Below are positions 2,433-16,802 of a stretch of DNA of 17,538 nt, one piece after another (the stretch's first letter is position 1; each line of letters begins with the position of its first letter). The translations under genes and the position numbers were made by a program. The notes below the pieces were generated by a model. The model did no database searches, was not told where the DNA came from, and saw only the letters and a list, made by a program, of their open reading frames with translations. Location of the stretch: the IMG/VR virus record IMGVR_UViG_3300029079_000044; one strand, given 5' to 3'. The DNA is from a virus. Taxonomy: Duplodnaviria; Heunggongvirae; Uroviricota; Caudoviricetes.

Positions 2433-2485
2433 GGGCGGCAGAGCAGTCACGGAGTAAAACTGATACCGCCAAACGTCACCAGAAA
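2433..2485 (-). ncRNA. dicF: DicF small RNA (ftsZ-targeting), 53 nt
   Basis: Reverse complement reads TTTCTGGTGACGTTTGGCGGTATCAGTTTTACTCCGTGACTGCTCTGCCGCCC followed by TTTTT, matching the DicF sequence as I recall it, including the GGCGG...CCGCC enclosing stem and 3' U-run. Confidence 0.8.
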
Positions 2486-3655: not shown

Positions 3656-4075
3656 TTAAGAGGCTTTTTGTTTTTTCTTTCGTGCTAACTCTTCGTAAAT
3701 TGCATTGTACTTCTGTTTTTTCTCTTCAAGAGTTTTTAAAAGTTCATCTGTCTCACTGTCAGGGAGCTCGTCCAGAAGGTCAATGATGATTTTTTGTCTT
3801 GGATTTAACTCCTGATAGAAACGTACCTGTCCACTTTCTTCTGTATCCTCTCCCAAAAGATAGGTTGGTGTTGTTCCTATTAGTGTTGCTAATTCCCTTA
3901 ATTTCTCCCGGCGAGGAATTGTTTCGCCATTAAACCATTTGCTAACCGCTTTTGGTGTTAATTTCATTCGACGGGCAATTTCTGCCTGCCTTCCATGTTG
4001 TTCATAACCAGCGTTTTCACAGGCTAGCGCAAGCCTACTGGCGAACTCTTTACGCGCTTTATCTTCATGAACCAT
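3656..4075 (-). CDS. XRE-family HTH immunity repressor (cI analogue, DicA/RacR-like), 139 aa
   Basis: Track ORF; N-terminal HTH-like segment (EIARRMKLTPKAVSKWFNGE) and acidic/helical C-terminus; divergent from the cro-like gene, with operator repeats on both sides. Confidence 0.75.
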   Translation of the reverse strand: MVHEDKARKEFASRLALACENAGYEQHGRQAEIARRMKLTPKAVSKWFNGETIPRREKLRELATLIGTTPTYLLGEDTEESGQVRFYQELNPRQKIIIDLLDELPDSETDELLKTLEEKKQKYNAIYEELARKKKQKAS

Positions 4076-6435: not shown

Positions 6436-7122
6436 ATGACCCCAATAAAAATATTTATGACTATTGCTGATTTCAAACGGCCTAAATTGGAGCTCCCAAA
6501 CGGGGCAAACAAACTACTACTGCACTCTTGCTGTGCTCCATGTTCCGGTGAAGTGATGGAGGCGCTTCAGGCCTCGGGAATCGACTACACCATCTTTTTC
6601 TACAACCCGAACATTCATCCTCAGAAAGAGTATTTAATTCGTAAGGATGAAAATATTCGCTTTGCTGAACAACACGGCGTGCCGTTTATCGATGCTGATT
6701 ACGACACCGACAACTGGTTTGAACGTGCCAAAGGAATGGAATGGGAGCCTGAGAGGGGGATCCGTTGTACCATGTGTTTTGACATGCGTTTTGAGCGGAC
6801 AGCGTTGTACGCTGCTGAAAATGGTTTCAGTGTGATCAGCAGTTCACTGGGCATTTCACGCTGGAAAAATATGCAGCAGGTTAACGAGTGTGGGCGGCGA
6901 GCTGTTGCGCATTATCCGGGTATGGTGTACTGGGATTATAACTGGCGCAAGCAGGGCGGCTCGTCCCGTATGATTGAAATCAGCAAGCGCGAAAAATTCT
7001 ATCAGCAGGAATATTGTGGCTGTGTGTATTCTCTGCGCGATACCAATCTACACCGCAAATCTCAGGGACGCCCTCTTATCAAAATTGGTCAACTCCACTA
7101 CGATAAAGAAGAGAAGGAGTGA
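6436..7122 (+). CDS. queH: QueH-like protein (DUF208; putative epoxyqueuosine reductase), 228 aa
   Basis: [11 protein letters not shown] motif near the N-terminus plus downstream RCTMCF and CGC Cys motifs, as I recall for DUF208/QueH. Start is uncertain because no clear Shine-Dalgarno precedes 6436 or 6457. Confidence 0.65.
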
Positions 7123-7330: not shown

Positions 7331-7945
7331 ATGAGAGTAAATAAACTACATTTAGGTGCTAGAGTTTCGCTATTTATAGTGTCATACCTTCCCCTATTCT
7401 TTATCATGTGTTTTGTGCAATTGTATACTTATAGAAGCTATTTAAATTGGAAAGGTATAAGTGTTGAATCATTAACTATTTTCTTTAAATACTTTGGCGC
7501 GGTCAGTGTCATTGGTGTATTATCATTATTTGGTATTGTAGGATTAACAATTTTTTTAAAAAATATAAAACGTCGATGCGCCACTAGTGGTAGAACTGTA
7601 AGAGTTATAGATATTGAAAATAAAAACAATGAATCAATAAGCTATCTTTTTACATATATAATTCCGTTTGTATTTCAGGATCTATCCACTTTAACTAATG
7701 TTATACCTATAGCAATATTGTTAACGGTAACGGCTTTAATATATATTAATTCAAGCATGATACTTATAAATCCTACAATAAGTATTAATTATACTTTATA
7801 TCAAGTTACATATTTGGATTTAGAAAGCGACAAAAAACGCACTGGTATGGTTTTGACTAAATCAAAGTATTTGGAGGAAGATGATCTTCTTGATGTTGAG
7901 GACGTGGGCCCAAAACTTTTTTATGCTGAATCCCATAAGGAATGA
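7331..7945 (+). CDS. Integral membrane protein with about 4 predicted TM helices and an acidic C-terminal tail (204 aa); first gene of the AT-rich cassette, KwaA-like architecture
   Basis: Track ORF; hydrophobic segments LFIVSYLPLFFIMCFVQLY, AVSVIGVLSLFGIVGLTIFL, YLFTYIIPFVF, VIPIAILLTVTALIYI; GGGG upstream of the ATG; stop overlaps the next start. Confidence 0.7.
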   Translation: MRVNKLHLGARVSLFIVSYLPLFFIMCFVQLYTYRSYLNWKGISVESLTIFFKYFGAVSVIGVLSLFGIVGLTIFLKNIKRRCATSGRTVRVIDIENKNNESISYLFTYIIPFVFQDLSTLTNVIPIAILLTVTALIYINSSMILINPTISINYTLYQVTYLDLESDKKRTGMVLTKSKYLEEDDLLDVEDVGPKLFYAESHKE

Positions 7946-8970
7946 AAATGTTAAAGCTTGAAGAATTATTAGAGTATGCTGAGCAACTTAAGGATGATGA
8001 TGCGGCGAAAATATCGTTGTATTTCATTACTAGACATCTTAAAGCGGGTATGAGTAGAACCGCAAGAGTTGTTGATAAATTCGATTTTAAAATCATTAAA
8101 GCTCCAATCGCTCCAGATATTGCTAAATTTTTTAAGTATACTTTATCAAACCAGATTATTTCTCATGCTTCGAAAGATGATATTGTGATGAAAAAGTATA
8201 CTGTTATTGATGATGATATTGATAATAAGATTTATGCCTATGCTATGAATAACGCGATATCGTTTTCAAAAGTTATTAATAACGATATAAAGAATGATAA
8301 ACCAGTTGTACTTACCTCTCTTGCTGAGGTTCAGAATGATTTGTGGGCCTATTGTATTAAAGTCCAAAAGGGGGCTGACGTCACTTATTCTTTCCGAAAA
8401 ATCAGCAGGGGGAAAGTCACAACAAATGAACCACAAAATATGACTCAGCGCGTATTCGCTTTGTTTGATAAAACAGATAAAGAGTTAAGATCATTTGATG
8501 GCAGCGCAGTCAATTTTGATGACAAAATCGATTGTGTTTATATAAAAGATCAATTTTATGTATTTCATAAGAAAAGTTTTGAGGCTATTGTAGGCTTGGA
8601 GGTTGAGTTTACAGAAGCTGCACAAAAAACATTAAATACAATTAAAGAACTTGATCTTATTGAAGGTTTAGATGTTATTGAACAAGCTATTCTTCATAAG
8701 CCATCACTGAGAAAAATTCTCACTCATATCGCTGAGAAAGGTAACCATACGGTTCTGGAAAAGAATGATGTTCAAGCTATGAATGATGTGCTAAAAATGT
8801 TTCAGAACGAAGAGTTTAAGACCAATGAGCATGGTAAATTAGTCATAGAAGATGAGAGGCAAGGAAGAAACTTTCTCAAACTGTTAAATGATTATTATAA
8901 ACAAGGCATGACTACAAAAAAATACTATGGTACGGATAGCGGAAATGTGATTAACCCTATTAAGGCGTAA
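7942..8970 (+). CDS. Soluble 342-aa protein of unknown function, translationally coupled to the upstream membrane protein; candidate defence effector/sensor (KwaB-like size)
   Basis: Track ORF; ATGA start/stop overlap at 7942-7945; AT-rich codon usage unlike the flanking genes; no catalytic motif recognisable by eye. Confidence 0.7.
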   Translation: MKMLKLEELLEYAEQLKDDDAAKISLYFITRHLKAGMSRTARVVDKFDFKIIKAPIAPDIAKFFKYTLSNQIISHASKDDIVMKKYTVIDDDIDNKIYAYAMNNAISFSKVINNDIKNDKPVVLTSLAEVQNDLWAYCIKVQKGADVTYSFRKISRGKVTTNEPQNMTQRVFALFDKTDKELRSFDGSAVNFDDKIDCVYIKDQFYVFHKKSFEAIVGLEVEFTEAAQKTLNTIKELDLIEGLDVIEQAILHKPSLRKILTHIAEKGNHTVLEKNDVQAMNDVLKMFQNEEFKTNEHGKLVIEDERQGRNFLKLLNDYYKQGMTTKKYYGTDSGNVINPIKA

Positions 8971-9198
8971 AGCATATACTATATCTGGAACTGAAATACC
9001 AGCCGCCATCAGAAAGAACTGATGGGGCTTACAAATAGTAAGTAAATATAAAATGTTAAGGTATTTTTCATGCAAAAATGAAAATCATTGGCACAAATTA
9101 GAAACTAAGTAAATTGCTAATACTAATAACTTATTATTCTACTTACTATTTGCATGGAGTTGTTGTGAATTGCTGGAAAGGTGGGTAATGTTTTTGTA

Positions 9199-9237
9199 GA
9201 ATCACGGCGGGTGCTTGAGGCTATCTGCCTCGGGCAC
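9199..9237 (+). promoter_or_regulatory. Conserved -10-like hexamer (TAGAAT) plus hairpin motif copy B
   Basis: GCGGGTGCTTGAGGCTATCTGCCTCGGGCA at 9207-9236 is 26/30 identical to copy A at 7188-7217; forms an 11-bp stem GTGCTTGAGGC/GCCTCGGGCAC with loop tatct; sits at the right boundary of the AT-rich cassette. Confidence 0.4.
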
Positions 9238-9399
9238 GAACACCAAAGGCAGATAGAGAAAAGCCCCAGTTAACATTACGCGTCCTGCAAGACGCTTAAC
9301 ATTAATCTGAGGCCAATTTCATGCTAGACACATGTAGGTTAGCCTCTTACGTGCCGAAAGGCACGGAGAAGCAGGCTATTGTTAACACCAAGCTGTAAT

Positions 9400-10900
9400 G
9401 TCCCCTTTGAACCATTCTAAAATGTCCCCAGACAATTCTCTGGGGGATTTTTCATGATCAAAGAGACTGTTACGATGAGTCATAAGGAACTCCACCGACT
9501 TCAGATTATTCAGGAACAAGCTGCGGCACGCATTGGCATTTCTATTCGGCAGGTTAAACGTCTGGTGCAACGGTATAGAAATGAAGGGCCTTCTGGTCTG
9601 GTTTCCCACCGACGTGGAAAGCGTCCTAATAATTCCTTTTCTACTGAATTCAGAGCAACAGTAATTTCACTCCTCAAAGGCCGTTACGCTGATTTTGGAC
9701 CTACGTTTGCGTGCGAAAAATTGCGCGAGATACACGGTTTATCTTTATCCGTTGAAACTCTCAGAAAGTGGATGATAGAAGAGGGGTTATGGCGTGAACG
9801 CCGTCGTAAAATTGCCCGTATATATCAACGCCGCATGCGACGACCATCTTACGGTGAACTGATCCAGATTGATGGCTCACCTCATGACTGGTTTGAAAAT
9901 CGAGGCCCCAGATGTACACTGATCGTTTTCATTGATGATGCCACCAGTGCGTTGATGGCGTTGCGTTTTGTGCCTGCTGAAACAACCCGGGCTTACATGG
10001 AAACCCTCCGGGGTTACCTTAATGATCATGGCGTACCGCTCGCTCTCTACTCTGATAGACACAGTATATTCAGGGTAAATAACCCAGAGCGGGAAGGTGA
10101 GCTGACCCAGTTCACTCGTGCGATAAAGACACTGGGCATCGAGCCAATCCATGCCAACAGCCCGCAGGCAAAAGGGCGGGTAGAGCGCGCCAATCAGACA
10201 CTACAGGACAGGCTGGTCAAAGAAATGCGGCTTCAGAATATCAGTGATATTGAAACAGCAAATGCATGGTTGCCGACCTTTATTGAAGCCTATAACAACC
10301 GGTTCGCTACGTCGCCTCGTACTACTGATAATGCTCATCTTGATGTGCACCATTCTGAAGAGGAACTGGGTTATATCTTCAGCCTACAGGCGAAGCGCGT
10401 TCTGTCTAAAAATCTCACTTTCCAGTACAAAAGCAGTGCGTTTCAGGTACGCAGTGAGGGCCGGGGATATCGACTTAGGCATTCGGTTGTTACTGTATGC
10501 GAGAACTTTGACGGTGAAATTAACGTTCTGTATGACGGGAAAGCGCTGGGCTGGGAAAAGTATGTTGATGGCCCGGAGCCTATACCACTGGATGATGAAA
10601 AGAGTGTCCATGAACGAGTGGATAATGCCCGTATTGATTTACGCTCAAAATACTATGTTAAACCTAAAGCTGACCATCCCTGGCTTACGCGCCGAACGCA
10701 AAGTCATCAGCAAGTTAAGCCCCCGAAGTTACCTAAAAAGAAGCCTGATCCCGATAAAAAAGATTGAAACCAAGATCGATTCGGTTGAGTGCATATCCAT
10801 TCATAGGGTAGATTCTTAAGTCGCGTTTCTGGTGTTCATTTTCGGGTGGTTTGTTACTTGTTTTACCGGGGATATGCCAGAAACGCGCTGAGTCAGTCTG
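9400..10900 (+). mobile_element. Insertion sequence carrying one DDE transposase gene (IS481/ISNCY-like); ends approximate
   Basis: Single 437-aa transposase ORF; terminal inverted repeats could not be resolved by eye, so these bounds are a guess of ORF plus about 50-130 bp each side. Confidence 0.35.
9454..10767 (+). CDS. DDE transposase with N-terminal HTH and rve integrase core (IS481/ISNCY-family-like), 437 aa
   Basis: Track ORF; N-terminal HTH (ARIGISIRQVKRLVQRYRNEG); catalytic-triad candidates in IQIDGS, YSDRHS and KGRVERANQTLQ; lysine/proline-rich basic C-terminus. Confidence 0.8.
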   Translation: MIKETVTMSHKELHRLQIIQEQAAARIGISIRQVKRLVQRYRNEGPSGLVSHRRGKRPNNSFSTEFRATVISLLKGRYADFGPTFACEKLREIHGLSLSVETLRKWMIEEGLWRERRRKIARIYQRRMRRPSYGELIQIDGSPHDWFENRGPRCTLIVFIDDATSALMALRFVPAETTRAYMETLRGYLNDHGVPLALYSDRHSIFRVNNPEREGELTQFTRAIKTLGIEPIHANSPQAKGRVERANQTLQDRLVKEMRLQNISDIETANAWLPTFIEAYNNRFATSPRTTDNAHLDVHHSEEELGYIFSLQAKRVLSKNLTFQYKSSAFQVRSEGRGYRLRHSVVTVCENFDGEINVLYDGKALGWEKYVDGPEPIPLDDEKSVHERVDNARIDLRSKYYVKPKADHPWLTRRTQSHQQVKPPKLPKKKPDPDKKD

Positions 10901-11203
10901 GGCGGTGCGCGTAATGAGGCGTTATGGTAAATAGCCTATGCTAATGTCCGCTAAGAGCAAGAAGCGGAAGTTGGCAGTTTTGTGGACTGTCCCCACAAAA
11001 GTGACTACAGAAATAGTTGCAATTCATAATTGATCATGGGTTGTCAGTTAAACTCGTGGCGATTTAAATAGACTAATTGGGAGTGCGTCCATTACTTATA
11101 TCTTGTAATGTTAACTATCAGAAATGATACAAAGATAATATGTCTTTAAAGAAAAGGCTGATGGCGAAAAGTGGCCCGATGAGGGCCACAATACGGCTGT
11201 CAC

Positions 11204-11536
11204 TTAGACGTAAATATCAATGGTGCCAGCGGTATTTGTATCGTCTTTTTTCTCTTCTTTTTTATCAGGCTGAACTGTCGCGTCTTCATTCTTTTTCTCT
11301 GCCTGCTGCCTTAACAACTGCTCCAGTTGAGCCCAGAGGCTTTCAATTTGCTTCTGTACCAATGCAGCCATTTCTTTTTTCTGCTGTGTCGTCATCCCCT
11401 CTTCCGATGAGATTTTCCCAAGCTTTTCAGTCAGCACCTGAATTTGTCTTGTGATTTTGGCTATTTCTGATGTTCCTTCCGGGGCGGAGTTGTTTGAAAT
11501 AACGGTTGAGGTATTTCCCTGAATTGTGACAGACAT
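11204..11536 (-). CDS. flxA: FlxA-like protein (110 aa)
   Basis: Track ORF MSVTIQGNTS...; AGGAG Shine-Dalgarno; preceded by a near-consensus sigma-28 promoter; position next to relB as in Qin. Confidence 0.7.
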   Translation of the reverse strand: MSVTIQGNTSTVISNNSAPEGTSEIAKITRQIQVLTEKLGKISSEEGMTTQQKKEMAALVQKQIESLWAQLEQLLRQQAEKKNEDATVQPDKKEEKKDDTNTAGTIDIYV

Positions 11537-11559
11537 AGATTTCTCCTTTTAAAAAAGCA

Positions 11560-11586
11560 CTATCGGCATGCACAAAAAAATCTTTA
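11560..11586 (-). promoter_or_regulatory. Sigma-28 (FliA) class-3 promoter for flxA
   Basis: Minus strand reads TAAAGATT, 11 nt, GCCGATAG against the consensus TAAAGTTT-N11-GCCGATAA; the -10 element lies about 24 nt upstream of the flxA ATG. Confidence 0.6.
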
Positions 11587-11738
11587 ATCGTATTTCTTGT
11601 GTCATTAATTGTTTGATGTTCAGATTGTTTTCCTCGCGGGCTGGCGCGCCTCAGAAAGTAAAGCTTGTTGACAGGGGTAAACGTTCGGCAATAATTTTCT
11701 GCCGCATGCGGGTGTTGCATAAAACGTGTTACGTTCCT

Positions 11739-12044
11739 TTATCGACAGTTCAGGTCACCGCTCACCCGCCGACGAGAAAGCAACACTGACATGCTAAAGC
11801 AAAAAATAGATGAATAAGTTGAGTTGTGCATATGTAGCCTGACCGTCACAAAGTATATGGTGTCTGTACCAGTAAGATGATGGCCGGACTCTTTAAAAAC
11901 GAGCTGACCTGCACAATACAGGATGGACTTAGCAATGGCTGCTCCTGGCACAAAGCGGACAGTGATCACCGTTCTTACGACTACTTTCTGACTTCCTTCG
12001 TGACTTGCCCTAAGCATGTTGTAGTGCGATACTTGTAATGACAT
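11739..12044 (-). CDS. YdfV-like hypothetical ORF (101 aa), doubtful
   Basis: Track ORF with size and position like ydfV between flxA and relB; no convincing Shine-Dalgarno; start lies inside the relBE promoter/operator. Confidence 0.3.
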   Translation of the reverse strand: MSLQVSHYNMLRASHEGSQKVVVRTVITVRFVPGAAIAKSILYCAGQLVFKESGHHLTGTDTIYFVTVRLHMHNSTYSSIFCFSMSVLLSRRRVSGDLNCR

Positions 12045-12060
12045 TTGTAATTACAAGAGG
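12004..12060 (+). promoter_or_regulatory. relBE promoter and relO operator
   Basis: TTGCCC, 17 nt, GATACT, then repeated TTGTAAT/ATTACAA hexads (cttgtaatgacatttgtaattacaag) directly upstream of relB. Confidence 0.6.
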
Positions 12061-12068
12061 TGTAAGAC

Positions 12069-12308
12069 ATGGGTAGCATTAACCTGCGTATTGACGATGA
12101 ACTTAAAGCGCGTTCTTACGCCGCGCTTGAAAAAATGGGTGTAACTCCTTCTGAAGCGCTTCGTCTCATGCTCGAGTATATCGCTGACAATGAACGCTTG
12201 CCGTTCAAACAGACACTCCTGAGTGATGAAGATGCTGAACTTGTGGAGATAGTGAAAGAACGGCTTCGTAATCCTAAGCCAGTACGTGTGACGCTGGATG
12301 AACTCTGA
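12069..12308 (+). CDS. relB: RelB antitoxin (79 aa)
   Basis: MGSINLRIDDELKARSYA...PKPVRVTLDEL matches RelB as I recall it; AGAGG Shine-Dalgarno; TGATG overlap with relE. Confidence 0.9.
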   Translation: MGSINLRIDDELKARSYAALEKMGVTPSEALRLMLEYIADNERLPFKQTLLSDEDAELVEIVKERLRNPKPVRVTLDEL

Positions 12309-12595
12309 TGGCGTATTTTCTGGATTTTGACGAGCGGGCACTAAAGGAATGGCGAAAGCTGGGCTCGACGGTACGTGAACAGTTGAAAAAGAAGCTGGTT
12401 GAAGTACTTGAGTCACCCCGGATTGAAGCAAACAAGCTCCGTGGTATGCCTGATTGTTACAAGATTAAGCTCCGGTCTTCAGGCTATCGCCTTGTATACC
12501 AGGTTATAGACGAGAAAGTTGTCGTTTTCGTGATTTCTGTTGGGAAAAGAGAACGCTCGGAAGTATATAGCGAGGCGGTCAAACGCATTCTCTGA
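12308..12595 (+). CDS. relE: RelE mRNA interferase toxin (95 aa)
   Basis: MAYFLDFDERALKEWRKLGSTVR...VYSEAVKRIL matches RelE as I recall it. Confidence 0.9.
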   Translation: MAYFLDFDERALKEWRKLGSTVREQLKKKLVEVLESPRIEANKLRGMPDCYKIKLRSSGYRLVYQVIDEKVVVFVISVGKRERSEVYSEAVKRIL

Positions 12596-12666
12596 ACCAA
12601 AGCATGACATCTCTGTTTCGCACCGAAGGTGACACTTCTGCTTTGCGTTGACAGGAGAAGCAGGCT

Positions 12667-12822
12667 ATGAAGCAGCAAAAGGCGATGTTAATCGCCCTGA
12701 TCGTCATCTGTTTAACCGTCATAGTGACGGCACTGGTAACGAGGAAAGACCTCTGCGAGGTACGAATCCGAACCGGCCAGACGGAGGTCGCTGTCTTCAC
12801 AGCTTACGAACCTGAGGAGTAA
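12667..12822 (+). CDS. hokD: Hok-family membrane toxin HokD/RelF (51 aa)
   Basis: Hand-translated MKQQKAMLIALIVICLTVIVTALVTRKDLCEVRIRTGQTEVAVFTAYEPEE; below the track length cutoff; follows relE as in the relBEF operon. Confidence 0.8.
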   Translation: MKQQKAMLIALIVICLTVIVTALVTRKDLCEVRIRTGQTEVAVFTAYEPEE

Positions 12823-12890
12823 GAGACCCGGCGGGGGAGAAATCCCTCGCCACCTCTGATGTGGCAGGCATCCTCAACGCACCCGCACTT

Positions 12891-12917
12891 AACCCGCTTC
12901 GGCGGGTTTTTGTTTTT
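12891..12917 (+). terminator. Rho-independent terminator after hokD
   Basis: aaCCCGCttcgGCGGGtttttgttttt: GC stem, 4-nt loop, U-run. Confidence 0.6.
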
Positions 12918-12930
12918 ATTTTCAACGCGT

Positions 12931-12960
12931 TTGAAGTTCTGGACGGTGCCGGAATAGAAT
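12931..12960 (+). promoter_or_regulatory. Sigma-70-like promoter upstream of rem
   Basis: TTGAAG, 18 nt, TAGAAT. Confidence 0.4.
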
Positions 12961-13038
12961 CAAAAATACTTAAGTAGCGCGCAGGGATAAGAGGGATGGT
13001 CCCTTAAAGGGGAGAGCTAATTATCCGGAAGGATTCTG

Positions 13039-13290
13039 ATGATGAACATCGAAGAACTGCGTAAAATTTTTTGTGAAGATGGCCTCTATGCTGTGTGCGT
13101 TGAAAATGGAAATCTTGTTAGTCATTACCGCATTATGTGTTTGCGAAAGAATGGGGCTGCGTTAATTAATTTTGTGGATGCTCGGGTCACGGACGGATTT
13201 ATCTTGCGCGAAGGTGAGTTTGTCACTTCATTACAGGCATTGAAAGAGATCGGAATAAAAGCTGGCTTTTCTGCTTTTTCAGGAGAATAA
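13039..13290 (+). CDS. rem: Rem-like small protein (83 aa)
   Basis: Track ORF; size and position (between hokD and ydfU) as in Qin. Confidence 0.5.
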   Translation: MMNIEELRKIFCEDGLYAVCVENGNLVSHYRIMCLRKNGAALINFVDARVTDGFILREGEFVTSLQALKEIGIKAGFSAFSGE

Positions 13291-16086: not shown

Positions 16087-16386
16087 AAAAATTCCTTAAT
16101 ACTGATAACTTGGCGCACTATACACACGTTCCTGAAGAAAGCTATAGTTTTTTGATGGGGTTGAAGATGGCTGGATGTCTAAAATAAACATTGCTTCATA
16201 TGTTCAACTATGCGTTAATGATTGCGTCGGTTTGAAGAACAGACGATATACGAAGTAGTTTACTAAAGCAGTTCTCATTTCAGGTGTTATTCACTTATTC
16301 CTTCTTTGAGTCTCTCCAATTAAGTACGAAGTCGTTTCTGTTATGCAAACCATTTATGCCGAAAGGCTCAAGTTAAGGAATGTAGA

Positions 16387-16602
16387 ATGTCAAATAAAAT
16401 GACTGGTTTAGTAAAATGGTTTAACGCTGATAAAGGTTTCGGCTTTATTTCTCCTGTTGATGGTAGTAAAGATGTGTTTGTGCATTTTTCTGCGATTCAG
16501 AATGATAATTATCGAACCTTATTTGAAGGTCAAAAGGTTACCTTCTCTGTAGAGAGTGGTGCTAAAGGTCCTGCGGCAGCAAATGTTATAATTACCGATT
16601 AA
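16387..16602 (+). CDS. cspB: Cold-shock protein CspB-like (71 aa)
   Basis: [51 protein letters not shown]...; AAGGA Shine-Dalgarno. Confidence 0.8.
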
Positions 16603-16802
16603 AATCCAGGACTCGACTGTATACGATAACGAAGATGGCTGATGCCTGAGTAGAGATGCAGATAGAGTAATGGATATAGAATCCCATTTTGTGGTGAAGT
16701 ACAGGTTTGCTGTATGAATAGTTTAATAGCAGAAGCTAACTGCTGGCATAGTAAAACAAAGTGCGTAAGTGGGTGACTCCCACAAAAAGCACCACAATCT
16801 CA

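What the first reader, a model, noticed from the sequence alone, without database searches (positions are those of the whole stretch)
9207..9400. Highly structured non-coding stretch between the cassette and the transposase gene
About 200 nt with no credible ORF but dense secondary-structure potential. Hairpin copy B (9211-9237) competes with an alternative pairing CTATCTGCCT (9221-9230) / AGGCAGATAG (9247-9256), a mutually exclusive arrangement typical of regulatory RNA switches. A 5-bp hairpin GCGTC-ctgcaa-GACGC (9280-9295) is flanked by 9-bp direct repeats TTAACATTA (9270-9278 and 9296-9304). A GNRA-tetraloop hairpin CGTGCC-gaaa-GGCACG lies at 9350-9365. A TAGAAT -10-like hexamer at 9199 could start a transcript here. 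It may be an sRNA or leader belonging to a gene displaced by the IS, or a structured 5' region of the IS itself.
Basis: seen in the sequence. Interest (0 to 1): 0.45.

Follow-up and report, generated by a model that had tools for sequence, protein, structure and literature searches.

The report
Orphaned hok/sok leader beside transposon
The structured stretch is the RNA control region (hok mRNA leader plus antisense sok gene) of the prophage toxin gene hokD, cut off from its toxin 3.3 kb away by a relBE-carrying transposon that inserts at this same spot in many different hok genes.

Summary
Window 9209-9380 is a full-length hit to Rfam RF01794 (sok/hok leader, 105.6 bits against a threshold of 59). 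It folds far better than shuffles (z = -4.6).

It is the 5' half of the Qin-prophage hokD type I toxin-antitoxin locus:
- hok promoter
- tac element, with a metastable hairpin that competes with the tac stem
- mok start
- Sok target
- the antisense sok gene

In E. coli C the same leader runs straight into hokD. Here the two are separated by a 3,274-bp element (9380-12653) that carries an IS1202-family (ISEsa1-like) transposase, flxA, ydfV and relBE. The element has TGT...ACA imperfect inverted repeats and an exact 15-bp target duplication (GGAGAAGCAGGCTAT) holding the hok ribosome-binding site and the first two bases of its ATG. hokD (relF) therefore became the third gene of the relB operon, and its regulatory leader was orphaned. 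K-12 later deleted the leader.

The RNA element is an ordinary member of a known family.

The less ordinary result is the vehicle. Elements of 2.3-12.8 kb with this transposase at the left end and relBE at the right end sit at the same position in at least a dozen different hok loci. They have 14-16-bp duplications. I found no description of this in the papers I could search.

The parts
9174..9202 (+). hok(D) mRNA promoter: -35 TGGAAA (9174-9179), 17-nt spacer, -10 TAGAAT (9197-9202)
   Evidence: Consensus scan, 9 of 12 matches. The -10 and flanking GTAGAAT are conserved in intact E. coli C and O157 loci. Function is inferred.
9207..9220 (+). tac (translational activator) element at the 5' end of the hok mRNA
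   Evidence: It pairs with the fbi element 12872-12886 downstream of hokD: 14 bp with one bulge, -27 kcal/mol, 5 of 500 shuffles as good. Start of the Rfam RF01794 match.
   Evidence: -20.9 kcal/mol, z = -5.6. It shares 9221-9230 with the long stem.
9209..9267 (+). tac stem (tac paired with the upstream complementary box), including CTATCTGCCT 9221-9230 with AGGCAGATAG 9247-9256
   Evidence: MFE and centroid structures (-29.5 kcal/mol, z = -5.1). First helix of the Rfam model.
9257..9339 (-). predicted Sok-type antisense RNA gene: a single-stranded 5' tail opposite the mok start, then a 23-bp terminator hairpin (9262-9314) and UUUUCUCU
   Evidence: Fold z = -4.6. The hairpin gives -28.2 kcal/mol on the minus strand against -17.8 on the plus strand. 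The ends are inferred, not mapped.
9344..9349 (-). putative sok -10 hexamer TAAGAG; its weak -35 overlaps the hok SD inside the duplicated 15 bp
   Evidence: Sits in the box AGCCTCTTA, conserved in most of the hok leaders examined. Not detected by the consensus promoter scan. Assigned by analogy with R1 sok from my own recollection, so this is inference.
9309..9398 (+). mok-type SD (GAGG 9309-9312) and a truncated 25-codon ORF (ATG 9321 to TAA 9396-9398) that now ends inside the transposon's left repeat
   Evidence: Translation MLDTCRLASYVPKGTEKQAIVNTKL*. In intact E. coli C the same ATG opens a 70-codon ORF in frame with hokD.
9350..9365 (+). GNRA-loop hairpin CGTGCC-GAAA-GGCACG just upstream of the hok SD; insertion occurs 14-17 nt past the end of its 3' arm
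   Evidence: Conserved with compensatory changes in other hok leaders. Distance distribution.
9365..9379 (.). left copy of the 15-bp target-site duplication GGAGAAGCAGGCTAT (hok SD plus the 'AT' of the start codon)
   Evidence: Exact repeat at 12654-12668. A single copy is present in the empty site of E. coli C.
9380..9407 (+). left terminal inverted repeat (TGTTAACACC...) of the IS1202-family element; a second transposase-site-like repeat lies at 9411-9429
   Evidence: 21 of 28 match to the reverse complement of 12626-12653, the best match in the window. Direct repeat D4.
9425..9452 (+). terminator-like hairpin plus T-run inside the element's left end, just before the transposase ATG
   Evidence: Its proposed role, stopping read-through from the hok promoter, is inferred.
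9454..10767 (+). ISNCY/IS1202-family (ISEsa1-like) transposase, 437 aa, with an in-frame 9-aa deletion in the N-terminal HTH
   Evidence: NF033594, 456 bits against a cut-off of 250. 437 of 446 residues identical to the plasmid copy apart from the gap.
11204..12044 (-). cargo genes flxA (11204-11536) and ydfV (11739-12044)
   Evidence: Annotation of the identical record. Pfam FlxA.
12069..12595 (+). relB-relE type II toxin-antitoxin module, the conserved right-end module of the element
   Evidence: Pfam RelB and ParE_toxin. Present next to the right repeat in 15 of the fetched genome and plasmid loci and in the 12.8-kb pC309-p2 element.
12626..12653 (+). right terminal inverted repeat (...TTGCGTTGACA)
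12654..12668 (.). right copy of the 15-bp duplication; it supplies the SD and the 'AT' of the ATG for hokD
12667..12822 (+). hokD (relF) toxin ORF, 51 aa, the gene that the leader at 9207-9379 used to control
   Evidence: Pfam HOK_GEF, 82.9 bits. Same protein accession WP_000813254.1 as the hokD that is contiguous with the leader in E. coli C.
12872..12917 (+). hok mRNA 3' end: fbi element (12872-12886) complementary to tac, then the terminator CCCGCTTCGGCGGG plus T-run (12893-12917)
   Evidence: Weak isrK-like Rfam hit covering the region.

Best explanation
**What it is.** Window 9174-9379 is the orphaned 5' regulatory half of the hokD/sok type I toxin-antitoxin locus of a Qin-like lambdoid prophage.

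**How the intact ancestor works.** This ancestor survives in E. coli C and in O157 prophages. Its promoter here makes a hok mRNA whose 5' tac element pairs with the 3' fbi element and keeps the mRNA closed. After 3' trimming, tac refolds onto the upstream complementary box (the 9209-9267 stem). This frees the mok ribosome-binding site and exposes the Sok target. The antisense Sok RNA, made from the minus strand, then pairs with it and triggers decay.

**What happened here.** A 3,274-bp IS1202-family transposon (9380-12653) inserted about 15 nt downstream of the conserved GNRA hairpin, exactly at the hok start codon. It carries an ISEsa1-like transposase, flxA, ydfV and relBE. The insertion duplicated the 15 bp that hold the hok SD and the 'AT' of the ATG.

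**Shown consequences.**
- The leader and the sok gene are left without a toxin ORF.
- hokD, with the duplicated SD, now lies directly downstream of relE. This gives the classical relB-relE-relF(hokD) gene order.

**Inferred consequences.**
- The hok promoter still fires and gives a toxin-less RNA of about 245 nt. That RNA lacks fbi, so it sits in the open tac-stem form. It translates a 25-codon mok' peptide and stops at the hairpin at 9425-9452.
- Sok is still made but has no cis target. The leader is therefore a relic, able at most to act in trans on closely related hok mRNAs.

**The vehicle.** It belongs to a transposon family that is site-directed to hok leaders.
For: **Identity of the RNA element**
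- Full-length RF01794 hit, 105.6 bits, E = 1.7e-23.
- Folding z-scores between -4.6 and -6.5.
- tac/fbi complementarity across the split.
- The terminator hairpin is 10 kcal/mol stronger on the minus strand.

**Empty site**
- In E. coli C the leader (96.7% identical) is contiguous with hokD, the same protein accession as the window's hokD, followed by rem.
- The O157 prophage shows the same arrangement.

**Insertion**
- Exact 15-bp duplication at 9365-9379 and 12654-12668.
- TGT...ACA ends with 21 of 28 inverted repeats, the best match in the window.

**Mobility as a unit and targeting**
- A copy 98.3% identical sits in a different, R1-type hok on plasmid pEnt261, with its own duplication GGAGAAGAAGGCCAT.
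- 24 distinct element/flank combinations (2.3-12.8 kb) with both ends in hand have exact 10-16-bp duplications, 23 of them 14-16 bp. Five further combinations have mismatched flanks.
- By my classification, 40 of 54 distinct left flanks are hok leaders (35 by the script's pattern, 5 more by eye). The junction is 14-17 nt after the hairpin where it could be measured.
- Tandem copies share one duplication.
- Hahella relatives are plain 1.45-kb IS. They have target duplications of roughly 15-17 bp whose exact length is ambiguous by 1-3 nt at the ACA end.

**K-12**
- K-12-type Qin has lost the leader and the left 1.2 kb of the element through a deletion. This would account for hokD having no upstream hok/sok control region in K-12 (my inference; I could not check how the original hokD papers describe it).

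**Prior hint**
- PMC6379469, citing Ramisetty & Santhosh 2016, states that relBE integrated into an ancestral ~70-codon hokD ORF. reproduces that 70-codon frame.
Against: - There are no expression data. Transcription of the leader and of Sok in this arrangement is inferred.
- The sok promoter was not picked up by the consensus scan because its -35 is weak. I placed it by analogy with R1.
- The window's transposase carries a 9-aa deletion in its HTH, so this copy may be immobile.
- 14 of 54 distinct flanks are not hok, so targeting is a strong preference and not absolute.
- Identical insertion positions could partly reflect spread of a few ancestral events by recombination. However, the flanking hok sequences differ.
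- I could not read the ISfinder ISEsa1 entry or Ramisetty & Santhosh 2016. The claim that 'ISEsa1' is the left arm of this transposon therefore rests only on the transposase naming by NCBI's annotation pipeline (PGAP) and on the 1.6-kb homology block.
Confidence: 0.9

Rival explanations
1. The stretch is a structured 5' untranslated or regulatory region that belongs to the insertion sequence itself.
For: It lies immediately upstream of the transposase gene, and the two travel together in about 775 E. coli genomes.
Against: The element's end is at 9380, shown by the inverted repeat and the 15-bp duplication. The leader occurs without the element, joined to hok, in E. coli C and O157. The same element is flanked by other, sequence-different hok leaders or by non-hok DNA elsewhere.
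Confidence: 0.02
2. The leader is not a mere relic. The orphan sok gene is kept because its antisense RNA neutralises closely related hok mRNAs made elsewhere in the cell, by other prophages or by incoming phages and plasmids. It would act as an anti-addiction or immunity function.
For: Most E. coli genomes carry several places that match the query containing this leader (median 2, up to 9 per genome). I saw no differences in the predicted Sok-coding part (9257-9339) between the window and the intact E. coli C locus in the alignment. The differences I saw lie outside it. hokW-sokW, a prophage hok-sok system from O157 Sp5, is a working toxin-antitoxin pair (PMC8621323). Whether it is the close relative of this leader that I fetched from O157 was not tested.
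Against: The split is evolutionarily recent: copies are at least 99% identical in many genomes. Lack of decay therefore says little. K-12-type strains lost the leader with no known consequence. There are no expression or cross-reactivity data.
Confidence: 0.15
3. The transposon exploits the leader. By always landing downstream of the hok promoter in one orientation, it borrows that promoter, and possibly Sok control, to drive or gate transposase expression. The leader would then function as the transposase's 5' control region.
For: The orientation is nearly constant, with the left repeat next to the leader. I noticed only one hok-site flank in the opposite orientation. The mok' frame reads 19 nt into the left repeat, 56 nt before the transposase ATG.
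Against: A terminator-like hairpin plus T-run sits between the leader and the transposase ATG, the usual device for insulating a transposase from outside transcription. Constant orientation is equally expected from asymmetric target recognition, as in the dif-targeting IS1202 relatives (PMC10132070). The element also sits at non-hok sites.
Confidence: 0.07
4. The coincidence of insertion sites reflects selection, not targeting. Insertions that uncouple hok from its activating leader are simply the ones that survive.
For: Other, unrelated IS (an IS3-like ISKpn8 and a ~1.1-kb IS481-like element) are also found inside hok leaders. This suggests that disrupting hok control is tolerated or favoured.
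Against: Selection would accept insertions anywhere in mok or hok. These insertions fall within a 4-nt range (14-17 nt past the hairpin) in at least a dozen different hok loci. They preserve the hok ORF with its SD. Several non-hok targets (L009, L017, L169) share a GGCA(A/T) motif at the same distance, by my reading of the flanks. Tandem insertions reuse the same site.
Confidence: 0.1

Closest known systems
hok/mok/sok (parB) of plasmid R1 and the hok mRNA family (Rfam RF01794)
   Same: The window matches the Rfam leader model over its full length. The leader architecture matches the published scheme (PMC9841398): tac at the 5' end, a metastable hairpin competing with the tac stem, a mok SD and start overlapped by the Sok target, an antisense gene with a terminator hairpin, and fbi plus a terminator after the toxin ORF.
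   Different: The locus is split. The toxin ORF and fbi lie 3.3 kb downstream, behind a transposon. The Sok terminator hairpin carries a 16-nt insertion relative to the Rfam consensus. The mok-type ATG is in frame with hok; from my recollection, R1 mok overlaps hok out of frame.
hokW-sokW of Sakai prophage 5 (E. coli O157:H7)
   Same: It is a lambdoid-prophage hok/sok locus. An O157 prophage copy I fetched has a leader 93.5% identical and a hok CDS 94.9% identical to the window's. hokW-sokW is experimentally a working type I toxin-antitoxin pair with detectable hok mRNA and Sok RNA (PMC8621323).
   Different: hokW-sokW is intact. I did not verify that the O157 copy I fetched (L003) is the Sp5 hokW itself.
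relBEF operon / hokD (relF) of E. coli K-12 Qin prophage
   Same: The same flxA-ydfV-relB-relE-hokD-rem segment is present, essentially identical. hokD is co-transcribed with relBE according to PMC5120126, citing Gotfredsen & Gerdes 1998.
   Different: K-12 has a deletion from ydfX into the transposase (ydfW is the transposase 3' end). That deletion removed the leader, sok and the left transposon end. The window keeps them, which is what makes the history readable.
IS1202 family (ISNCY), ISEsa1 and the ISTde1 subgroup
   Same: The transposase hits NF033594. The ends are TGT...ACA with imperfect terminal repeats of about 28 bp and an extra internal repeat at the left end. The 14-16-bp target duplication is close to the long (16-17 bp) class (PMC10132070; bioRxiv 10.1101/2022.12.17.520857).
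   Different: ISEsa1 is listed as 1,609 bp, with no duplication and no known target (PMC10132070). Here the 1.6-kb block is only the left arm of 2.3-12.8-kb elements that end after relBE. These elements do make duplications and prefer hok leaders. The identity of the ISfinder entry with this block was not checked.
ISAjo2/ISAba32 group (dif/pdif-targeting IS1202 relatives) and Tn7
   Same: These elements also show oriented, fixed-distance insertion next to a recognised sequence, and tandem insertions at the same site (bioRxiv 10.1101/2022.12.17.520857).
   Different: The target here is the hairpin/SD region of hok leaders rather than a XerC/D site. The duplication is ~15 bp rather than 5 bp. 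No accessory targeting protein is evident, and the recognition determinant is unknown.

Membership tests
[quoted passage not shown] | Covariance-model match to the hok leader/sok family above the curated threshold | tested here: met
   9209-9380, model positions 1-157 of 157, 105.6 bits against a gathering score of 59, E = 1.7e-23.
[quoted passage not shown] | 5' tac element complementary to a 3' fbi element located after the toxin ORF | tested here: met
   9207-9220 pairs with 12872-12886, -27 kcal/mol, 5 of 500 shuffles as good. It sits at the expected place, between the hokD stop and the terminator. The two elements are now on separate transcription units.
[quoted passage not shown] | Alternative 5' structures: a metastable hairpin against the tac/ucb stem | tested here: met
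   Hairpin 9211-9237 (-20.9 kcal/mol) and stem 9209-9267 (-29.5 kcal/mol) share 9221-9230.
[quoted passage not shown] | Antisense Sok gene with its own promoter and terminator opposite the mok start | tested here: inconclusive
   The terminator hairpin and U-tract are predicted and are strand-asymmetric in favour of the minus strand. The promoter was not found by the consensus scan. A conserved TAAGAG box was assigned by analogy only.
[quoted passage not shown] | Hok/Gef toxin ORF immediately downstream of the leader, translationally coupled to mok | tested here: not met
   The leader is followed by the transposon. The mok-type frame stops at 9398. The cognate hokD ORF (PF01848) is at 12667-12822. 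The locus is therefore a disrupted member, not a functional unit.
[quoted passage not shown] | Transcripts of both strands detectable; Sok-dependent repression | not testable with these tools
   No expression data are available. Shown only for the related hokW-sokW locus (PMC8621323).
IS1202 family (ISNCY) transposable element | Single large DDE transposase of the family | tested here: met
   NF033594, 456 bits against a cut-off of 250. HTH and rve_3 Pfam domains.
IS1202 family (ISNCY) transposable element | 5'-TGT...ACA-3' ends with imperfect terminal inverted repeats of about 24-28 bp | tested here: met
   TGTTAACACC... and ...GCGTTGACA, 21 of 28 matching, abutting the duplication.
IS1202 family (ISNCY) transposable element | Target-site duplication of a characteristic length | tested here: met
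   15 bp here. 14-16 bp in 23 distinct complete element/flank combinations, plus one of 10 bp in a tandem copy. Roughly 15-17 bp in Hahella relatives. The published long classes are 16-17 and 27-28 bp, so this is at the edge of the ISTde1 class.
IS1202 family (ISNCY) transposable element | Size 1.3-2.0 kb with only a transposase (plain IS) | tested here: not met
   The element is 3,274 bp with four passenger genes. Relatives reach 12.8 kb with nickel and chromate resistance cargo. It is a transposon or transporter IS, not a plain IS.
IS1202 family (ISNCY) transposable element | Demonstrated transposition | not testable with these tools
   Only inferred, from near-identical copies at different sites, each with its own duplication.
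relBE type II toxin-antitoxin | Adjacent RelB antitoxin and RelE/ParE-fold toxin genes | tested here: met
   PF04221 at 112 bits and PF05016 at 51 bits. Annotated relB and relE in the identical record.

The most novel reading that the evidence does not exclude
The 1.6-kb 'ISEsa1' block is the left arm of a previously undescribed family of IS1202-type transposons (2.3-12.8 kb). They have variable cargo, including Ni/chromate resistance, and a fixed relBE module at the right end. They insert site-specifically about 15 nt downstream of the conserved hairpin in hok mRNA leaders. Each insertion severs a type I toxin from its mok/Sok control and fuses it to the relBE operon. The classical relB-relE-relF operon of E. 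coli would be one such capture event.
Probability: 0.5. Interest if true: 0.65.

Novelty: new member of a known kind. Interest (0 to 1): 0.45.

Why it matters
**The stretch itself.** There is little new here. It is an unannotated but typical hok/sok leader.

**The context**
- It explains why hokD (relF) has no upstream hok/sok control region in K-12 and travels in the relB operon.
- It shows that relBE arrived on a defined transposon, not as a free-floating cassette.
- It supplies a target and a duplication length for the ISEsa1 branch of the IS1202 family, for which none were found in the 2023 survey (PMC10132070).

**Why the behaviour is unusual.** A transposon carrying a type II toxin-antitoxin module homes to type I toxin genes and rewires them. 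This is an interaction between selfish elements, and some copies of the vehicle also carry metal-resistance genes on clinical plasmids.

**Practical use.** The orphan leader marks Qin variants. It is also a candidate source of Sok RNA acting in trans.

Tried and rejected
- **Internal right end near 10972**, where homology to the plasmid 'ISEsa1-only' hits stops. No inverted-repeat match was found there. The best reverse-strand match of the left 30-mer in the whole window is at the outer end, 12624-12653. The pC309-p2 copy turned out to be a 12.8-kb element ending after relBE.
- **RNAalifold on 12 leaders**. The MAFFT alignment was poor because several leaders are truncated by other IS. Only 8 pairs were recovered, 2 with compensatory changes. 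I rely on the Rfam model for structure instead.
- **Consensus promoter scan for sok** on the minus strand found nothing.
- **A second copy of 'hairpin B'** in the window does not exist.
- **Permissive Rfam scan of 8900-13100.** It added only a sub-threshold isrK-like hit on the hokD 3' UTR and chance hits.
- **Resemblance between the right repeat and the target hairpin**, considered as a reason for targeting. An alignment by eye was unconvincing and I dropped it.
- **Literature.** Ramisetty & Santhosh 2016 is not held. Searches for ISEsa1, relBE plus hok plus transposon, and IS1202 plus target found no description of the transposon or its hok preference. The library misses most subscription journals, including Pedersen & Gerdes 1999.
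Full report
**1. Setting.** The window is identical to a Qin-like lambdoid prophage of E. coli strain 7/2. The gene order is:
- dicB, DicF RNA, cI/cro-like genes, ydaT and replication genes
- queH
- a low-GC KwaA/KwaB-like pair
- the finding
- an ISNCY transposase
- flxA, ydfV, relB, relE, hokD, rem, ydfU, Q, cspF/cspB

Rfam also recognises DicF and the cspA-type thermoregulator in the window.

**2. The observation.** The -10-like TAGAAT is at 9197-9202 rather than 9199.

The stretch is significantly structured:
- 9207-9400 gives z = -4.56.
- The 5' hairpin 9211-9237 gives z = -5.6.
- The competing long stem 9209-9267 gives z = -5.1.

The region 9262-9314, which holds the 'direct repeats' TTAACATTA, is a long quasi-palindrome. 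It folds at -28.2 kcal/mol on the minus strand but only -17.8 on the plus strand, because its centre uses G.U pairs. That asymmetry points to a minus-strand RNA.

**3. Identity.** cmscan gives a full-length match of 9209-9380 to RF01794 ('sok antitoxin, CssrC'), which models the hok mRNA leader: 105.6 bits against a gathering score of 59, E = 1.7e-23.

Read against the published hok scheme (summarised in PMC9841398), the parts are:

| Part | Coordinates | Source |
|---|---|---|
| Promoter TGGAAA-17-TAGAAT | 9174-9202 | |
| tac | 9207-9220 | |
| Metastable hairpin | 9211-9237 | |
| tac/ucb stem | 9209-9267 | |
| mok SD GAGG | 9309-9312 | |
| mok ATG | 9321 | |
| Hairpin CGTGCC-GAAA-GGCACG | 9350-9365 | |
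| hok SD GGAG | 9365-9368 | |

On the minus strand there is a Sok-like RNA. It has a free 5' tail opposite the mok start and a 23-bp terminator hairpin followed by UUUUCUCU.

The matching fbi element (12872-12886) and the terminator (12893-12917) lie after hokD, 3.5 kb away. tac and fbi form 14 pairs with one bulge.

**4. The displaced gene.** In E. coli C the same leader (96.7% identical) continues directly into hokD, followed by rem. That hokD has the same protein accession as the window's hokD at 12667-12822. An O157 prophage shows the same intact arrangement.

In the intact locus the upstream ATG is in frame with hokD and gives a 70-codon ORF. This matches the statement in PMC6379469, citing Ramisetty & Santhosh 2016, that relBE integrated into an ancestral ~70-codon hokD.

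In the window this frame reads 19 nt into foreign DNA and stops after 25 codons.

**5. What separates them.** Alignment of the window with the empty site shows that GGAGAAGCAGGCTAT is present once in E. coli C and twice in the window, at 9365-9379 and 12654-12668.

The 3,274 bp between the two copies start with TGTTAACACCAAGCTGTAATGTCCCCTT and end with the reverse complement of TGTCAACGCAAAGCAGAAGTGTCACCTT. That is 21 of 28 matching, by far the best reverse-strand match to the left end in the window.

The element encodes:
- a 437-aa ISNCY/IS1202-family transposase (NF033594, 456 bits)
- flxA and ydfV
- relBE

TGT...ACA ends, imperfect terminal repeats, an extra internal site at the left end and long duplications are the hallmarks of the IS1202 family (PMC10132070; bioRxiv 10.1101/2022.12.17.520857).

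The right copy of the duplication supplies the SD and the 'AT' of the ATG for hokD. hokD thereby became the gene after relE, the relBEF order.

K-12-type Qin carries a later deletion from ydfX into the transposase. That deletion removed the leader, sok and the left end. This would account for hokD having no upstream control region there.

**6. The element moves as a unit and prefers hok.**
- **A second hok target.** On the Enterobacter IncF plasmid pEnt261 a copy 98.3% identical lies in a different, R1-type hok (MKLPRNTLLWC...). It sits at the same position and is flanked by that locus's own 15 bp, GGAGAAGAAGGCCAT.
- **Recurring architecture.** A scan of one genome per species with the transposase, plus scans of viral and metagenome contigs with the end sequences, recovered the same plan repeatedly: left repeat, transposase, variable cargo, ydfV', relBE, right repeat. 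Lengths run from 2.3 to 12.8 kb. Exact duplications of 14-16 bp are found in 23 distinct complete element/flank combinations. One tandem copy has 10 bp, and five combinations have mismatched flanks that look recombinant or deleted.
- **The largest copy.** It is on pC309-p2 and carries ncr nickel and chr chromate resistance genes.
- **Site preference.** By my classification, 40 of 54 distinct 45-nt left flanks are hok leaders (35 by the script's pattern, 5 more by eye), from at least a dozen different hok loci. These include hokD-, hokE-, hokA-, hokC- and R1-like types. The junction lies 14-17 nt past the 3' arm of the conserved hairpin wherever it could be measured.
- **Non-hok sites.** Several non-hok targets (L009, L017, L169) carry GGCA(A/T) at the same distance, by my reading of the flanks.
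- **Tandem copies.** Two loci have tandem elements sharing one duplication. This is expected if the recognition determinant upstream of the cut survives insertion.
- **Distant relatives.** Hahella relatives (62% aa identity) are plain 1.45-kb IS with duplications of roughly 15-17 bp at unrelated sites. The duplication length is therefore a clade property, while hok preference and the relBE arm are specific to the enterobacterial branch.
- **ISEsa1.** Harmer & Hall list ISEsa1 as 1,609 bp, with no duplication and no target (PMC10132070). The 1.6-kb block shared by all these elements ends at window ~10972, with no inverted repeat there. The published unit is therefore probably the left arm of the larger transposon. 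This last point is inference, because I could not see the ISfinder sequence.

**7. How the stretch most likely works now.**

Shown:
- The leader has lost its toxin ORF and its fbi partner.
- hokD has lost its leader, mok coupling and Sok target. Sok complementarity (9257-9339) lies wholly outside the 15 bp that hokD retained.

Inferred:
- The hok promoter still produces an RNA that, lacking fbi, adopts the open tac-stem form. That RNA allows translation of the 25-codon mok' frame and ends at the hairpin plus T-run at 9425-9452 in the transposon's left end.
- Sok is still made from a promoter whose -10 (TAAGAG, 9349-9344) is intact and whose -35 lies in the duplicated 15 bp.
- With no cis target, the pair is a relic.
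- A residual trans role against related hok mRNAs is possible, because such loci are common (median 2 places per genome matching the query that contains the leader). It is untested.

**8. [quoted passage not shown] A studied prophage hok-sok system is hokW-sokW of O157 Sp5 (PMC8621323). An O157 prophage copy I fetched has a leader 93.5% identical to the window's, but I did not check that it is the Sp5 locus.

As a mobile element the insert works like the dif-targeting IS1202 relatives, with oriented, fixed-distance insertion and tandem copies. It differs in three ways: the target is different, the duplication is ~15 bp, and it carries cargo plus a conserved toxin-antitoxin arm.

**9. Verdict.** Its first interpretation, a leader or sRNA of a gene displaced by the IS, is correct. 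The alternative, that the stretch is part of the IS, is wrong.

The finding itself is ordinary biology of a known family. What is moderately interesting is what it reveals about the origin of relBEF and about a hok-homing, relBE-bearing transposon family. I did not find that family described in the searchable literature. That library lacks the two most relevant subscription papers.

Noticed in passing
window 7331-8970 (with queH at 6436-7122): A low-GC (26-35%) two-gene cassette with sub-threshold KwaA/KwaB (Kiwa-like anti-phage) matches lies between queH and the hok leader. The E. coli C prophage has only about 430 bp there. This looks like a defence-gene hotspot next to hok in lambdoid prophages.
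   Followed up: partly
window 9454-10767: The transposase is 100% identical to the plasmid copies except for an in-frame 9-aa deletion (SINRHITQE) in the N-terminal helix-turn-helix. The Qin copy may be unable to move. NCBI's annotation pipeline (PGAP) annotates it as a pseudogene plus 'ydfW'.
   Followed up: partly
L002 3126-3338 (E. coli C); window 9321 onward: In hokD-type loci the mok-like start codon is in frame with hok, giving a 70-codon ORF. It is not the overlapping out-of-frame arrangement that I recall for R1 mok.
   Followed up: partly
L085 13483-14580; also L164, L166, L193, L213, L229: A ~1.1-kb element encoding an HTH plus DDE (IS481-like) transposase sits between the leader hairpin and the hok SD in several plasmid hok loci. 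In pC309-p2 the big transposon's 15-bp duplication lies inside this element's end.
   Followed up: partly
L004 ~3900-3930; L007, L015, L021 (same relative position): The end of an IS3-like element (ISKpn8 family...TGTCCAACTTTTTGGGGTCAGTAC) abuts the mok SD region in four sequence-different hok leaders. hok leaders therefore attract at least three kinds of IS.
   Followed up: no
L021 ~7527-7590; L233 ~11700-11760: Tandem ISEsa1-type elements are separated only by the shared target duplication. This implies repeated use of one site and no target immunity.
   Followed up: partly
L020 5880-5926: One element sits at the same 15-bp hok target (GGAGAAGAAGGCCAT) but in the opposite orientation.
   Followed up: no
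L162 and L144 (same viral contig set); L123, L115: Some copies have mismatched flanks, for example hokA-like on the left and hokD on the right, or a right end fused inside the hokD ORF. This suggests recombination between two copies and adjacent deletions.
   Followed up: no
window 12831-12912: A sub-threshold Rfam isrK-like hit (25 bits, E = 0.017) covers the hokD 3' UTR, that is the fbi element and terminator.
   Followed up: partly
window 2433-2484 (-) and 16226-16644 (+): DicF sRNA and a cspA-type thermoregulator (cspB 5' UTR) are present. These are standard Qin features.
   Followed up: no
L025-L036, L050 (Hahella sp. SMD15-11): At least nine copies of a plain 1.45-kb relative (62% aa identity) are present, with duplications of roughly 15-17 bp at unrelated sites. 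This is an apparently active IS of the same clade without cargo.
   Followed up: partly
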